A stretch of 64,000 nucleotides of DNA from Escherichia coli (lineage in GTDB: Bacteria; Pseudomonadota; Gammaproteobacteria; Enterobacterales; Enterobacteriaceae): the NCBI RefSeq assembly GCF_045037415.1, contig NZ_CP173438.1; one strand, 5' to 3'. Below the pieces are notes generated by a model, which did not search any database, was not told the origin of the DNA, and saw only the letters and a list, made by a program, of their open reading frames with translations. Made by a program: the position numbers and the translations under genes. Each line of letters opens with the position of its first letter. Within the stretch, counting starts at the first letter, position 1. This document shows positions 19,021 through 37,521 of this stretch, one piece after another.

Positions 19021-19281
19021 ATGTTCCGTTGTCCGCTTTGTGGCGCATCTGCCCGTATCCGCACCAGTCGTCCGGAAAATGATTCAAACACCGTGCGGCA
19101 AAAGTATTACCAGTGTAACAATCTGGAATGCGGCGTATGCTTCTCAACACTGGAAGCTTTCCATAAATTCACATCAAAACACGCCTCCGGCGTTCACTCT
19201 TCAGAAGGTATCCCGTGGCATGATCTGCCAGCTTCACACAGGGGAAACAATCAGATGAGTTTGCCTTTATCTCAGAATTAA
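19021..19281 (+). CDS. late-gene transcriptional activator, Ogr/Delta zinc-finger family
   Basis: 86 aa; MFRCPLCGASARIRTSR...YYQCNNLECGVCFSTLEAF with the Cys-x2-Cys...Cys-x4-Cys pattern of P2 Ogr. Confidence 0.85.
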   Translation: MFRCPLCGASARIRTSRPENDSNTVRQKYYQCNNLECGVCFSTLEAFHKFTSKHASGVHSSEGIPWHDLPASHRGNNQMSLPLSQN

Positions 19282-19369
19282 CAGGCAGAATTGCCGGAGT
19301 AACAAAAAAGCGATAGATTACGTGCGGGTGCCTTTCGGCTGATGGTCGGAGGGAATACCCGAAGGCCAG

Positions 19370-19555
19370 ATGTGGAAAGGCCCCGAGTCAACTTTAACGT
19401 TAACCCGAGGCCCTAACCATCTACCCTCAGCAAGTGATAGGTTAGCGCCTCCCCGAAAAAGGAGCAAGCGCTATGTCGCAAAAATCGCTTACGGCCATCA
19501 CATTCTGCGTGACGGCAATCCTCATCATCTGGATGCTGCACGGTTCGCTGTGTGA
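19370..19555 (+). CDS. mok-like overlapping reading frame of hok locus (translational coupling frame)
   Basis: 61-codon frame starting ~100 nt upstream of and overlapping the hok-like ORF in a different frame, as in hok/mok/sok loci. Confidence 0.4.
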   Translation: MWKGPESTLTLTRGPNHLPSASDRLAPPRKRSKRYVAKIAYGHHILRDGNPHHLDAARFAV

Positions 19556-19613
19556 AATACGGATGAGTTTCTGGGGAGCGGAGTTTGCGGCGTTCTTACA
19601 GTGTAAGCAGTAA
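19473..19613 (+). CDS. Hok/Gef-family type I toxin (46 aa)
   Basis: MSQKSLTAITFCVTAILIIWMLHGSLCEIRMSFWGAEFAAFLQCKQ: single TM then conserved SLCEIR and E.AAF motifs of Hok/Gef; below the 60-aa ORF-track cutoff, found by reading the DNA. Confidence 0.7.
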   Translation: MSQKSLTAITFCVTAILIIWMLHGSLCEIRMSFWGAEFAAFLQCKQ

Positions 19614-19706
19614 GGAAACCGCGACGGGGAAGGCAACTTCCCCGTCAATCGGTTGCCAGGGTAAAGGTCGAAAAGGCACCCTATTTCCAGTTGACGTGAA
19701 CAACAA

Positions 19707-19740
19707 GCCCGCAGCGTAAAAACTGCGGGTTTTCTTTTTG
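19707..19740 (+). terminator. rho-independent terminator, probably 3' end of hok mRNA
   Basis: CCCGCAGCGTAAAAACTGCGGG + TTTTCTTTTTG. Confidence 0.55.
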
Positions 19741-19770
19741 GTTCCCTCACTCATGAGGACACCAAAAAAC

Positions 19771-19802
19771 AAAGCCCACAGCATAGAAGCTGTGGGCTTT
19801 TT
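19771..19802. terminator. bidirectional hairpin terminator
   Basis: AAAGCCCACAGCATAGAAGCTGTGGGCTTTTT with A/T runs on both sides. Confidence 0.5.
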
Positions 19803-19876
19803 GCATTCAAAGATGGACGTTATATGGACACTTAAAAATAAAATCCATTTATTTTCAAATGATTAAACCTCTACTT

Positions 19877-19898
19877 AAAGCGCCCGCAGGCGCTTTTT
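19877..19898 (-). terminator. serS terminator (bidirectional hairpin)
   Basis: AAAGCGCCCGCAGGCGCTTTTT immediately downstream of serS stop. Confidence 0.6.
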
Positions 19899-19918
19899 AG
19901 ATTCAGAAAAATTGGGTA

Positions 19919-21232
<1,314 letters not shown>

Positions 21233-34783: not shown

Positions 34784-34871
34784 GGTGAGGTGTCCGAGTG
34801 GCTGAAGGAGCACGCCTGGAAAGTGTGTATACGGCAACGTATCGGGGGTTCGAATCCCCCCCTCACCGCCA
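34784..34871 (+). tRNA. serW: tRNA-Ser (anticodon GGA)
   Basis: GGTGAGGTGTCCGAGTGGCTGAAGGAGCACGCCTGGAAAGTGTG...GGTTCGAATCCCCCCCTCACCGCCA: acceptor stem pairing, long variable arm, T-loop GGTTCGAATCC, 3' CCA. Confidence 0.93.
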
Positions 34872-34922
34872 TATTTAAAGAAGAGCTCGTACGAAAGTAC
34901 GGGCTTTTTTTTCGCATTTTAT

Positions 34923-35003
34923 CTGCCTGTACGGCAGTGAACTTGTCATTATTGGCAGACAGGATCCGCGGCAATTTCTAAGCTGCCTGTACGGCAGTGA
35001 ACT
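34923..35003 (+). repeat. two copies of a 21-bp direct repeat (CTGCCTGTACGGCAGTGAACT) spaced 60 bp apart downstream of serW
   Basis: Exact copies at 34923-34943 and 34983-35003; each contains short dyad CTGCC..GGCAG. Confidence 0.8.
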
Positions 35004-35214: not shown

Positions 35215-37491
35215 TTAATGCGCTGCTTCCGCCTTGTGCTTTTGTGCACTCTGGAATCCGTAAGTCAGCTCATTTTTCTCTTTATCCAGCGCGACGGTGA
35301 CCTGACCGCCGTCCACCAGCGAACCAAACAGCAGTTCGTTGGCGAGCGGTTTTTTCAGGTTGTCCTGGATGACACGCGCCATCGGACGTGCGCCCATTGC
35401 CCGGTCGTAACCTTTCTCGGCCAGCCAGTTACGCGCTTCCTGGCTCACTTCCAGAGAAACACCTTTCTGATCCAACTGAACCTGCAACTCGACGATGAAT
35501 TTATCCACCACCTGATGGATCACGTCGGTTGACAGATGATCGAACCAGATAATGTTGTCGAGACGGTTACGGAATTCCGGTGTAAAGATCTTCTTGATCT
35601 CTTCCATCGCATCGGTGCTGTTATCCTGGTGGATAAGACCAATGGATTTGCGCTCAGTTTCCCGTACCCCGGCATTAGTGGTCATCACCAGCACCACGTT
35701 ACGGAAGTCCGCTTTGCGTCCGTTGTTATCGGTCAGCGTACCGTTATCCATCACCTGCAACAGAATATTGAACACGTCCGGGTGCGCTTTCTCGATTTCG
35801 TCCAGCAGCAGCACCGCATGTGGATGCTTGATGACCGCATCAGTCAGCAAACCGCCCTGATCAAAACCAACGTATCCCGGAGGCGCACCAATCAGACGGC
35901 TGACGGTATGGCGTTCCATATACTCGGACATATCAAAGCGCAGAAGCTCAATGCCCAACGCTTTCGAAAGCTGTACCGTCACCTCTGTTTTCCCGACCCC
36001 AGTAGGGCCGGCAAACAGGAACGAACCGACCGGTTTATGTTCGTGACCTAAACCTGCACGCGCCATCTTAATGGCTTCAGTCAGCGCCTCAATGGCTTTA
36101 TCCTGACCGAAGACCAGCATTTTCAGGCGATCGCCGAGGTTTTTCAGGGTATCGCGGTCACTCTGAGAAACACTCTTCTCTGGAATGCGTGCAATACGGG
36201 CCACCACGGATTCAATATCCGCCACATTAACGGTTTTCTTGCGTTTGCTTACCGGCATCAGACGTGCGCGAGCGCCCGCTTCGTCGATAACATCAATCGC
36301 TTTATCCGGCAGATGACGATCGTTAATGTATTTCACCGCCAGCTCTACCGCCGCACGCACCGCTTTTGCGGTATAACGCACGTCGTGGTGCGCTTCATAC
36401 TTCGGTTTCAGGCCATTGATGATTTGAACAGTTTCTTCGATTGACGGTTCAGTAATATCAATTTTCTGGAAGCGACGCGCCAGAGCACGGTCTTTCTCGA
36501 AAATGTTGCTGAACTCCTGATAGGTTGTCGAACCAATTACGCGGATTTTACCGCTGGAGAGCAACGGTTTAATCAGGTTAGCCGCATCGACCTGGCCACC
36601 AGACGCTGCACCCGCACCGATAATGGTGTGGATCTCATCAATAAACAGGATGCTGTTAGTGTCCTGCTCCAGCTGCTTGAGCAACGCTTTAAAACGTTTT
36701 TCAAAGTCGCCGCGATATTTTGTGCCCGCTAACAGGGAACCGATATCGAGAGAGTAAATCGTACAGTCAGCCATCACTTCCGGCACATCGCCCTGAACAA
36801 TTCGCCATGCAAGCCCCTCCGCAATCGCGGTTTTACCGACACCAGACTCCCCCACCAGCAGCGGGTTGTTTTTACGGCGACGGCAGAGAACCTGAATAGC
36901 ACGCTCCAGCTCCTTCTCACGACCAATTAGTGGGTCGATTCCGCCCACTCGCGCAAGCTGATTCAGGTTCGTCGTGAAATTCTCCATACGTTCCTCCCCA
37001 CCAGCTTGTTCTTCGCTGTTTGGCTGGCTGCCAGGATCAGAAGACTGTGTCGGCTCGTCTTTACGCGTGCCATGAGAGATAAAGTTCACCACATCGAGAC
37101 GGCTGACTTCATGTTTGCGCAACAGATATGCCGCCTGCGACTCCTGTTCGCTAAAGATAGCGACCAGAACGTTTGCACCGGTAACCTCATTGCGACCGGA
37201 GGACTGGACATGGAAGACCGCACGTTGCAGTACACGCTGAAAACTCAACGTCGGCTGTGTGTCGCGCTCCTCTTCACTGGCAGGCAGAACGGGTGTGGTT
37301 TGTTCAATAAAGGCTTCCAGTTCCTGACGGAGCGCAACCAAATCTACAGAACACGCTTCCAGCGCCTCCCGGGCAGATGGGTTACTGAGCAGCGCCAGTA
37401 ACAAGTGCTCGACGGTCATAAACTCATGACGGTGCTCGCGCGCTCTGGCGAAAGCCATATTTAAACTGAGTTCCAGTTCTTGATTGAGCAT
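35215..37491 (-). CDS. clpA: ATP-dependent Clp protease ATP-binding subunit ClpA
   Basis: [35 protein letters not shown]..., two AAA+ modules ([16 protein letters not shown]). Confidence 0.97.
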
Positions 37492-37521
37492 AGGCACCTC
37501 CCCCAATTTTTATGCCTGCAT

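What the first reader, a model, noticed from the sequence alone, without database searches (positions are those of the whole stretch)
19370..19740. hok/mok-like type I toxin-antitoxin locus at the prophage-host junction
A 46-codon ORF (19473-19613), too short for the ORF track, encodes MSQKSLTAITFCVTAILIIWMLHGSLCEIRMSFWGAEFAAFLQCKQ. This has a single TM helix followed by the SLCEIR...E.AAF signature of Hok/Gef toxins. A longer overlapping frame (19370-19555) is positioned like mok, and a hairpin-T-run terminator lies ~95 nt downstream, consistent with the long structured 3' UTR of hok mRNAs. K-12 has no hok locus next to serS as far as I recall, so this is likely accessory DNA, either prophage cargo distal to ogr or a small island at the attachment site.
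Basis: partly seen in the sequence, partly recalled or inferred. Interest (0 to 1): 0.55.

Follow-up and report, generated by a model that had tools for sequence, protein, structure and literature searches.

The report
Known Hok/Sok toxin-antitoxin in P2-like prophage
This is a real but already catalogued Hok/Sok-type toxin-antitoxin module, carried as cargo at the end of a P2-like prophage in E. coli ST131; the only unusual point is that the proposed "mok" reading frame is not conserved in its relatives.

Summary
The 46-codon ORF (19473-19613, +) exists and is a Hok/Gef-family toxin (Pfam PF01848 E=4.8e-7; PHROG 251 E=1.3e-22). The window matches E. coli ST131 genomes (EC958, JJ1886) at 100% identity. 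RefSeq already annotates the ORF there as "Hok/Gef family protein".

The locus has most of the RNA anatomy of plasmid R1 hok/sok:
- a 5'-3' fold-back (19326-19340 pairs with 19666-19681);
- a sequestered hok Shine-Dalgarno;
- a predicted switch to a 5' hairpin once the 3' end is removed;
- a conserved antisense promoter that would make a Sok-shaped RNA of about 65 nt;
- a terminator at 19705-19732.

The module lies 140 bp inside the prophage. The 20-bp att core, which is the serS terminator, is at 19877-19896, so this is phage cargo between ogr and att. The module is in 1542 of 5426 complete E. coli genomes, mostly next to ogr in P2-like phages and next to lom in Stx phages.

The identical peptide is entry 72_1621 in a 2025-26 Hok catalogue, which cloned it and reports it toxic.

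The mok claim is not supported. No start codon sits at the canonical position. The ATG-19370 frame reaches hok in only 7 of 54 relatives and shows no coding constraint.

Verdict: correct in essence, ordinary, already known.

The parts
19291..19319 (+). Inferred hok mRNA promoter: -35 TTGCCG (19291-19296), 17-nt spacer, -10 TAGATT (19314-19319), predicted +1 at G19326.
   Evidence: Its position is homologous to the R1 hok -10 TATGAT, which lies 6 nt before +1. The -10 is TAGATT, TAGAAT or TAAATT in 52 of 54 relatives, and the spacer is 17 nt in 53 of 54. The generic sigma-70 scan did not flag it. No transcript data are available.
19326..19740 (+). Predicted full-length hok mRNA, about 415 nt.
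   Evidence: MFE -172.6 kcal/mol, z = -6.0 against shuffles. In 52 relatives 94.1% of cells are paired, against about 42% in slid controls, and 16 pairs carry compensatory changes. The Rfam RF01794 leader model matches 19326-19486 with E=9e-8 and 42.8 bits, below its gathering score of 59.
19326..19340 (+). tac-like 5' element, GGGUGCCUUUCGGCU.
   Evidence: It pairs with 19666-19681 in the full-length fold and with 19372-19384 in the 3'-truncated fold. It is nearly invariant in relatives.
19370..19555 (+). It is probably not a conserved coding feature.
   Evidence: The ATG is kept in 53 of 54 relatives, but the frame reaches hok in only 7 of 54. In the others it stops 13-100 nt before the hok ATG. 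Synonymous:nonsynonymous counts are 6:34 in the overlap and 15:76 plus 8 stop variants upstream. It has no PHROG or NCBIfam hit.
19372..19384 (+). ucb-like box, the alternative partner of tac.
   Evidence: The truncated-mRNA MFE pairs 19326-19339 with 19372-19384. In relatives 97.6% of cells are paired, through conservation rather than covariation.
19368..19433 (-). Predicted Sok-like antisense RNA of about 65 nt. The ends are inferred.
   Evidence: It folds into an 11-nt single-stranded 5' tail plus a 16-bp hairpin, -32.7 kcal/mol, z = -5.2. This is the architecture described for R1 Sok (my knowledge of the Gerdes-lab work).
19439..19467 (-). Inferred Sok-like promoter: -35 TTGCTC (19467 to 19462), 17-nt spacer, -10 TAACCT (19444 to 19439).
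   Evidence: The -10 is TAACCT in 53 of 54 relatives. The -35 is always TTGnnn, and TTGCTC in 44 of 54. The spacer is 17 nt in 50 of 54. In the alignment the same -10 hexamer, TAACCT, lies at the equivalent place in the experimentally studied sokW locus, and the probe sequences place sokW RNA immediately downstream of it. The generic scan did not flag it.
19407..19411 (+). GAGGC, the homologue of the R1 mok Shine-Dalgarno, with no start codon downstream.
   Evidence: Alignment with R1 puts AUC (19419-19421) where R1 has the mok AUG. Relatives have GUC, AUC, AUU or other codons there. In the truncated fold GAGGC pairs with GCCUC at 19447-19451, and 98.5% of cells are paired in relatives.
19443..19473 (+). 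Hairpin that sequesters the hok SD (GGAG, 19461-19464) and the start codon.
   Evidence: It is seen in the full-length MFE. Helices 7 and 8 are 100% and 93.8% paired in 52 relatives.
19473..19613 (+). hok CDS, 46 aa: MSQKSLTAITFCVTAILIIWMLHGSLCEIRMSFWGAEFAAFLQCKQ.
   Evidence: Pfam PF01848 E=4.8e-7. PHROG 251 E=1.3e-22. RefSeq WP_000078916.1, 'Hok/Gef family protein'. Variable sites by codon position are 12/9/25. The peptide is identical to 72_1621 in the Hok catalogue.
19623..19646 (+). 3'-UTR hairpin, GACGGGGAAG-GCAA-CUUCCCCGUC.
   Evidence: Seen. Helix 15 is 98.9% paired, and 3 of its pairs carry compensatory changes.
19666..19681 (+). fbi-like 3' element, ...CGAAAAGGCACCC.
   Evidence: It pairs with the 5' end in both the MFE and the centroid structure. 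Helix 1 is 89.5% paired in relatives. Homology with Stx-phage copies ends just after it.
19705..19740 (+). Intrinsic terminator of the hok mRNA.
   Evidence: A 10-bp stem with 6 G-C pairs, followed by TCTTTTT. It is shared with phages P88 and Chuche but not with the Stx-phage copies.
19877..19896 (.). att core AAAGCGCCCGCAGGCGCTTT, which is the serS terminator hairpin. It marks the prophage-host boundary.
   Evidence: The same 20-mer sits at the integrase end of the prophage in EC958. The empty K-12-type site has a single copy.

Best explanation
The region 19291-19740 is a complete hok/sok-family type I toxin-antitoxin module. It is carried as a moron between ogr and the attachment site of a roughly 38.7-kb P2-like prophage integrated at the serS terminator in E. 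coli ST131.

Shown by computation:
- A 46-aa Hok-family membrane peptide is encoded on a highly structured mRNA of about 415 nt.
- In the full-length fold, the first 15 nt of that mRNA pair with a box 33-48 nt upstream of the terminator (the tac/fbi fold-back).
- In the same fold the hok SD and AUG are locked in a hairpin.
- Once the 3' box is removed, the predicted fold switches to a 5' tac/ucb hairpin plus a GAGGC/GCCUC stem.
- A conserved promoter on the opposite strand would make an antisense RNA of about 65 nt with an 11-nt free 5' tail and a 16-bp hairpin. It is complementary to the leader at 19368-19433.

Inferred by analogy with R1 hok/sok and Sp5 hokW-sokW:
- The stable full-length mRNA is translationally inert.
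- Slow 3' trimming activates it.
- The unstable antisense RNA then binds it and triggers RNase III decay.
- When antisense transcription stops, Hok is made, inserts in the inner membrane and kills or lyses the cell. Antisense transcription could stop through loss of the prophage, host transcription shut-off by an infecting lytic phage, or prophage induction.

The likely biological role is prophage addiction and/or abortive infection. Help with lysis, as reported for hokW-sokW, is the alternative.

Coupling through an overlapping mok frame, which R1 requires, is not a conserved feature of this subfamily.
For: - Protein: Pfam PF01848 E=4.8e-7. PHROG 251 E=1.3e-22. All seven family-conserved residues are present. 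Third-codon-position variation is in excess, 12/9/25. The identical peptide 72_1621 was cloned, and the preprint text implies it was among the 42 of 45 toxic homologues.
- RNA: the full-length fold has z = -6.0 and a 5'-3' closing helix. In 52 relatives 94.1% of cells are paired against about 42% in slid controls, with 16 compensatory pairs. The truncated fold switches to tac/ucb. The antisense hairpin has z = -5.2. Promoter hexamers and spacers are conserved on both strands. The Rfam hok-leader model gives E=9e-8.
- Context: the att core is duplicated at both prophage ends and occurs once in the empty site. Phage genomes P88 and Chuche carry the module. Of 120 viral contigs, 93 have it next to ogr and 13 next to lom. 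It is in 1542 of 5426 complete E. coli genomes.
- Mechanism precedent: PMC9841398 for R1 and PMC8621323 for hokW-sokW.
Against: - There are no transcript, processing or toxicity data for this locus in its native context.
- A generic sigma-70 scan found no promoter on either strand.
- The Rfam score of 42.8 is below the gathering threshold of 59, and the whole-window gathering scan did not report the hit.
- The NCBIfam Hok models score far below their curated cut-offs, 34 against 89 and 21.6 against 73.
- The canonical mok start is absent and the substitute frame is not conserved. In R1, Hok translation requires mok translation up to the hok SD, so the way Hok translation is activated and repressed here is not established.
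- The alternative truncated-form helices are preserved by sequence conservation. Covariation there is no better than in shuffles.
- The biological role is pure inference.
Confidence: 0.88

Rival explanations
1. It is a translationally silent hok relic. The module looks intact, but because the canonical mok start is missing, Hok is never made from the native mRNA. This would resemble the inactivated chromosomal hok loci of K-12.
For: There is no ATG, GTG or TTG at the position of the R1 mok start. In R1, translation of mok up to the hok SD is mandatory. In most relatives no ORF from any canonical start crosses the hok start. The hok SD and AUG are sequestered in a conserved hairpin. K-12 hokA/mokA/sokA is itself disrupted by IS150.
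Against: The ORF is intact in nearly all of 53 unique relatives and shows a coding-type substitution pattern. Both promoters and the whole RNA fold are conserved, with compensatory changes. The module has spread into two unrelated phage types and into 28% of complete E. coli genomes. In this particular allele the ATG-19370 frame does read through the hok SD. Purifying selection on an unexpressed toxin is hard to explain.
Confidence: 0.1
2. It is a small host genomic island at the serS-dmsA site rather than phage DNA.
For: It lies at the extreme end of the prophage, beyond the last recognisable phage gene, ogr.
Against: The module ends 140 bp inside the duplicated 20-bp att core. The empty K-12-type site lacks it. 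Sequenced phage genomes P88, Chuche and others carry it downstream of the tail gene D, and most related viral contigs have ogr beside it.
Confidence: 0.02
3. Its main role is to speed up host lysis and phage release on induction, as reported for hokW-sokW of Sp5, rather than addiction or defence.
For: Takada et al. showed that hokW-sokW halves-to-doubles Sp5 release and that HokW is made after mitomycin C in a RecA-dependent way. Stx phages also carry a 74%-identical copy of this very Hok next to lom.
Against: The studied hokW is a different locus, with only 30% protein identity. The host element here is P2-like, with a Cox/C-type switch, and such phages are classically not SOS-inducible (my knowledge of P2). 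Nothing links this locus to induction.
Confidence: 0.25

Closest known systems
Hok cluster 72 (peptides 72_1621 and 72_1589) in Escalera-Maurer et al., bioRxiv 10.1101/2025.08.07.668861
   Same: 72_1621 is identical to the window peptide over all 46 residues. 72_1589 is identical to the lom-adjacent copy in Sp5. Both were cloned under an arabinose promoter. The text lists only three other peptides as non-toxic, so both count as toxic. [quoted passage not shown]
   Different: That study analysed only the coding sequence. It explicitly left Mok, Sok and the mRNA structure unanalysed. It does not describe the ogr-att location in P2-like phages.
hok/mok/sok (parB) of plasmid R1
   Same: Both have a Hok-family toxin; the two proteins are 33% identical. 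Shared RNA features are a weak hok promoter with +1 six nt after the -10, a 5' tac / 3' fbi fold-back, a predicted tac/ucb switch, a GAGG box pairing with a dcb-like GCCUC, a sequestered hok SD, an antisense promoter opposite the hok SD region, a Sok-shaped antisense RNA, and a terminator just after fbi.
   Different: There is no start codon at the mok position. The substitute upstream frame is not conserved. The toxin has 46 aa rather than 52. The carrier is a phage rather than a plasmid. Beyond the aligned elements, nucleotide similarity is too low for the Rfam gathering score.
hokA/mokA/sokA of E. coli K-12
   Same: HokA is the closest K-12 paralogue, 43% identical over 40 aa. It shares the motifs W-M-x-x-x-S-L-C-E and A-A-F-L-x-C-K, including the C-terminal cysteine. 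It is also the best NCBIfam hit.
   Different: There is no significant DNA similarity. hokA is chromosomal, lies next to cspA, and is inactivated by IS150 in K-12. The score is far below the HokA equivalog cut-off, 34 against 89 bits.
hokW-sokW of Stx2 phage Sp5 / 933W (Takada et al. 2021, PMC8621323)
   Same: It is a prophage-borne hok/sok module shown experimentally to be a type I TA. It has the same -10 hexamer, TAACCT, at the aligned position and the same fold-back logic (GCGGGUGCUUGAGG paired with CCUCAACGCACCCGC).
   Different: It is a different locus in the same phage, at about 57.5-57.8 kb in AP000363 against 44.5-44.9 kb for the true homologue. HokW is only 30% identical. The label 'MokW-like host killing' on phage records comes from the PHROG family name and does not indicate orthology.

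Membership tests
Hok/Gef toxin family (Pfam PF01848) | Significant match to the family profile over most of its length | tested here: met
   PF01848 i-E=4.8e-7, 29.7 bits, model positions 5-42 of 42. PHROG 251 E=1.3e-22 over residues 1-46.
Hok/Gef toxin family (Pfam PF01848) | The residues conserved in more than 80% of 1264 Hok peptides (M1, C16, T18, L30, C31, E32, E41 in logo numbering) | tested here: met
   M1, C12, T14, L26, C27, E28 and E37 are invariant in the alignment with Hok R1 and HokW.
Hok/Gef toxin family (Pfam PF01848) | A peptide of about 50 aa with one N-terminal hydrophobic helix and a polar C-terminal part | tested here: met
   Read directly from the sequence: 46 aa, a hydrophobic stretch at about residues 7-22 (TAITFCVTAILIIWML), then HGSLCEIRMSFWGAEFAAFLQCKQ.
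Hok/Gef toxin family (Pfam PF01848) | Toxic when overexpressed | not testable with these tools
   Literature only. The identical peptide 72_1621 was cloned (LRP137). The text names only 19_179, 60_1482 and 69_1540 as non-toxic among the 45 tested.
NCBIfam HokA equivalog (NF007290) and Hok family subfamily (NF007279) | Score at or above the curated cut-off | tested here: not met
   34 bits against a cut-off of 89, and 21.6 bits against a cut-off of 73. It is therefore a Hok-family member outside these two curated subgroups.
hok/sok type I TA locus (R1 parB paradigm) | Long-range 5' tac / 3' fbi pairing that closes the full-length mRNA | tested here: met
   The MFE and centroid structures pair 19326-19340 with 19666-19681; z = -6.0. 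The helix is 89.5% paired in 52 relatives. The whole fold is 94.1% paired against about 42% in slid controls.
hok/sok type I TA locus (R1 parB paradigm) | Alternative tac/ucb and SD-box/dcb helices in the 3'-processed mRNA | tested here: inconclusive
   They are predicted in the truncated fold and preserved in relatives at 97.6% and 98.5% paired. Covariation is no better than in shuffles. 3' processing itself cannot be tested here.
hok/sok type I TA locus (R1 parB paradigm) | A cis-encoded antisense RNA (Sok) with its own promoter, complementary to the leader | tested here: inconclusive
   The -10 TAACCT is kept in 53 of 54 relatives, the -35 is TTGnnn, and the spacer is 17 nt. The predicted RNA has a Sok-like fold, z = -5.2. 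The generic promoter scan found nothing, and there are no expression data.
hok/sok type I TA locus (R1 parB paradigm) | A mok reading frame that starts in the Sok target about 58 nt upstream of hok and is translated at least to the hok SD | tested here: not met
   AUC sits at the aligned mok-start position. The only frame that crosses the hok SD starts at ATG 19370, 103 nt upstream. It is open in 7 of 54 relatives and shows no coding constraint.
hok/sok type I TA locus (R1 parB paradigm) | The hok Shine-Dalgarno is sequestered in a local hairpin | tested here: met
   CUCC (19449-19452) pairs with GGAG (19461-19464), and GCGC pairs with GCGC. Helices 7 and 8 are 100% and 93.8% paired.
Rfam RF01794 (sok / hok leader model) | Score at or above the gathering threshold | tested here: not met
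   42.8 bits against 59, although E=9e-8 and the full model length is matched at 19326-19486. The hit is absent from the gathering-threshold scan. The match is on the sense strand of the hok mRNA, so the model describes the leader.
hokW-sokW of Sp5 (orthology) | The same locus and protein as the experimentally studied hokW | tested here: not met
   The hokW primers map to AP000363 at about 57.8 kb, whereas the window homologue maps to 44.5-44.9 kb next to lom. Protein identity is 30%.

The most novel reading that the evidence does not exclude
This abundant Hok lineage (cluster 72) has lost the canonical mok and controls Hok translation without Mok coupling. One possible route: the relic mok-SD box GAGGC (19407-19411) acts only as an anti-anti-SD. 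After 3' processing it captures GCCUC (19447-19451) and so frees the hok SD, and the antisense RNA prevents this by covering GAGGC. An alternative is a short uORF of variable length that starts at the conserved ATG 19370 and does the unfolding. Either route would be a regulatory variant of the hok/sok paradigm, in which mok translation is held to be mandatory.
Probability: 0.35. Interest if true: 0.4.

Novelty: already known. Interest (0 to 1): 0.15.

Why it matters
It matters little as a discovery. The protein is annotated in RefSeq, the family is a textbook one, and the identical peptide has been catalogued and tested.

It has some value as annotation. The RNA parts (promoters, tac/fbi, the antisense RNA, the terminator) and the exact prophage boundary are not annotated in the public records. 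The label "MokW-like" on phage records also wrongly suggests identity with the studied hokW.

Two points may interest specialists. First, the ogr-hok-att arrangement is the commonest context of this Hok lineage, with 93 of 120 viral contigs next to ogr. Second, the lineage lacks a conserved mok, so it is a natural test case for whether Mok coupling is universal in hok/sok systems.

Tried and rejected
- The generic sigma-70 promoter scan of 19200-19950 found no sites. I rejected it as decisive because the hexamers here match consensus no better than those of the functional R1 promoters (hok -10 TATGAT), which would also fail its threshold.
- Rfam at gathering threshold over the whole window gave only a tRNA and a CRISPR repeat. 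The hok leader appears only in E-value mode.
- NCBIfam Hok models scored below their cut-offs.
- I first assumed the Stx-phage homologue was the published hokW-sokW. I rejected this after mapping the paper's primers to a different place in Sp5.
- mok: I looked for any ATG-, GTG- or TTG-started ORF in either alternative frame that crosses the hok start. Most relatives have none. A near-cognate AUC at the canonical position is in the hok frame, but by direct reading of the sequence it runs into UAG at 19443-19445.
- DNA comparison with the K-12 hokA locus, with IS150 removed, gave no significant similarity.
- A literature search for hok in P2-like phages or ST131 prophages found nothing specific.
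- The host-island interpretation was rejected by the att-core mapping.

Full report
**Observation.** ORF 19473-19613 (+) encodes MSQKSLTAITFCVTAILIIWMLHGSLCEIRMSFWGAEFAAFLQCKQ. A 61-codon frame runs from 19370 to 19555. A G+C-rich hairpin at 19705-19732 is followed by a T-run. The peptide matches Pfam HOK_GEF (PF01848) with E=4.8e-7 over model positions 5-42 of 42, and PHROG 251 with E=1.3e-22. Two curated NCBIfam Hok models are hit only below their cut-offs: HokA 34 of 89 bits and Hok family 21.6 of 73 bits. The peptide is therefore a family member outside those subgroups. The seven residues conserved in more than 80% of known Hok peptides are all present.

**Source and existing annotation.** The region is 100% identical to E. 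coli ST131 genomes such as EC958 and JJ1886. RefSeq already annotates the ORF there as WP_000078916.1, "Hok/Gef family protein", between an ogr/Delta zinc-finger gene and serS. The 371-bp module (19320-19690) is present at 80% coverage or more in 1542 of 5426 complete E. coli genomes, always under the same annotation.

**Prophage boundary.** The prophage in EC958 spans from an integrase next to dmsA to ogr and hok next to serS, about 38.7 kb, with P2-type late genes. The 20-mer AAAGCGCCCGCAGGCGCTTT, which is the serS terminator hairpin, occurs at window 19877-19896 and again at the integrase end. A K-12-type empty site has one copy. The hok terminator ends 140 bp inside this core, so the module is phage DNA between ogr and att. 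Free phage genomes carry it in the same place: P88 at 90.7% identity and Chuche at 93.5%. Among 120 viral contigs retrieved with a WGAEFAAF-coding pattern, 93 have ogr beside it, 13 have lom, and 14 have neither within 1.5 kb.

**Relation to hokW.** Stx phages (933W, Sp5/VT2-Sakai) match the module at about 83% identity just downstream of lom. This is not the published hokW-sokW locus. The primers of Takada et al. (PMC8621323) map about 13 kb away in Sp5, and HokW is only 30% identical to the window peptide. Sp5 therefore has two hok loci, and the window's homologue is the unstudied one. It is left unannotated in AP000363. The label "MokW-like host killing" on some phage records is simply the PHROG family name. 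K-12's closest paralogue is HokA, 43% identical over 40 aa with no DNA similarity.

**RNA anatomy.** Alignment with R1-type hok/sok and hokW places the homologous elements.
- *hok promoter.* A promoter-like pair, TTGCCG-17 nt-TAGATT, ends 6 nt before G19326. This is the same geometry as the R1 hok -10 TATGAT. The hexamers and spacer are conserved in 54 unique relatives.
- *Full-length fold.* RNA 19326-19740 has an MFE of -172.6 kcal/mol, z = -6.0. Its first 15 nt pair with 19666-19681, which is the tac/fbi fold-back. The hok SD (GGAG, 19461-19464) and the AUG sit in a local hairpin.
- *Conservation of the fold.* On an alignment of 52 distinct relatives, 94.1% of cells are paired, against about 42% when partners are slid. 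Sixteen pairs carry double-sided changes. These are concentrated in the long-range helix 19422-19438/19650-19665 and in the 3'-UTR hairpin.
- *Predicted switch.* Removing the 3' box switches the predicted fold to a tac/ucb hairpin (19326-19339 with 19372-19384) and a GAGGC/GCCUC stem (19407-19411 with 19447-19451). These helices are preserved in relatives by conservation, without significant covariation.
- *Antisense gene.* On the minus strand, TTGCTC-17 nt-TAACCT (19467 to 19439) lies where R1 and sokW have the Sok promoter. The -10 is identical in 53 of 54 relatives. The predicted transcript (19433 to 19368) has an 11-nt free 5' tail and a 16-bp hairpin, z = -5.2.
- *Rfam.* The Rfam "sok" model, which actually models the sense leader, matches 19326-19486 end to end with E=9e-8 and 42.8 bits. 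That is below its gathering score of 59.

**The mok claim.** In R1 the mok AUG lies 58 nt upstream of the hok AUG, and translation of mok up to the hok SD is mandatory (PMC9841398).
- At the aligned position the window has AUC, and relatives have GUC, AUC, AUU or other codons.
That ATG is kept in 53 of 54 relatives, but the frame reaches hok in only 7 of 54. Elsewhere it ends 13-100 nt before the hok ATG, giving peptides of 1-29 aa.
- Variant codons in this frame are 6 synonymous to 34 nonsynonymous in the overlap, and 15 to 76 plus 8 stop variants upstream. The hok frame shows 31 to 28, with third-position excess of 12/9/25.

An overlapping mok is therefore not a conserved feature of this lineage, although the ST131 allele happens to have the frame open. 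The recent Hok survey did not analyse Mok, calling its identification "not trivial".

**Prior knowledge.** Escalera-Maurer et al. (bioRxiv 10.1101/2025.08.07.668861) catalogue 1264 Hok peptides and report enrichment in prophages. Their peptide 72_1621, in a high-abundance cluster, is identical to the window peptide. It was cloned (LRP137) for arabinose-induced toxicity assays. The text lists only three other peptides as non-toxic among the 45 tested.

**Mechanism and role.** I take the module to work like R1 hok/sok. A stable, closed mRNA is activated by 3' trimming. An unstable antisense RNA holds it in check. Hok is then made and permeabilises the inner membrane once antisense supply stops. 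The structural steps are computed, and the dynamics are inferred from R1 and hokW-sokW. The role is inferred: prophage addiction and/or abortive infection, or possibly help with lysis. How translation is coupled without a canonical mok is open, and that is the one non-trivial question the locus raises.

**Verdict.** The finding is correct in essence, with the mok detail unsupported. The feature is ordinary and already known.

Noticed in passing
window 34922-35002 (tRNA at 34784-34868; clpA ORF 35215-37506, minus strand): A tiny orphan type I-F CRISPR array. It has one full 28-nt repeat (34975-35002, Rfam CRISPR-DR4, 50.1 bits), one partial repeat (34922-34942) and a single 32-nt spacer. It lies between a tRNA gene and the clpA-sized ORF. 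It is probably the known clpA-infA CRISPR remnant of E. coli (my recollection, not checked).
   Followed up: partly
window 19771-19800 and 19813-19833: Two features lie between the hok terminator and the att core. One is a second strong hairpin (12 bp) flanked by A-runs and T-runs, which scores as a minus-strand terminator. The other is a direct repeat, ATGGAC-N7-ATGGACAC, which resembles ATGGACAGTTTATGGACAC at the integrase end of the prophage. These are probably integrase arm-type sites of attP.
   Followed up: partly
L005:1501-1875 (AP000363.1 44532-44906) and L006:715-927: Sp5/VT2-Sakai carries two hok loci. The lom-adjacent one (46 aa, 74% identical to the window Hok) is not annotated in AP000363. 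In the published hokW locus, the annotated 70-aa 'gef homolog orf74' is an in-frame N-terminal extension of HokW (MLNTCRLASYVPKGKEKQA-MKQQKAM...). The upstream ATG at the mok position is therefore in the hok frame there.
   Followed up: partly
L004:344-559 (plasmid pMTY1886_IncFII, NZ_CP128973.1): In this R1-type hok/sok copy the mok ATG (344) lies 57 nt, not 58 nt, upstream of the hok ATG (401). It is therefore in frame with hok. The PLSDB gene table annotates only a shortened CDS at 458-559. This may be a natural mok-frame variant or a sequencing artefact.
   Followed up: no
L127:9185-10463 (EC958 record 978184-979462, outside the window): The same P2-like prophage encodes a ParM plasmid-segregation protein and a 'plasmid partitioning/stability family protein'. 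It thus carries analogues of both stability loci of plasmid R1 (parMRC and hok/sok; the R1 comparison is from my knowledge).
   Followed up: no
window 19326-19486: The Rfam family RF01794, named 'sok antitoxin', matches the plus (hok mRNA) strand, and its consensus ends in ...AAUG just after an AAGG box. The model therefore describes the sense leader, not the antisense RNA.
   Followed up: partly
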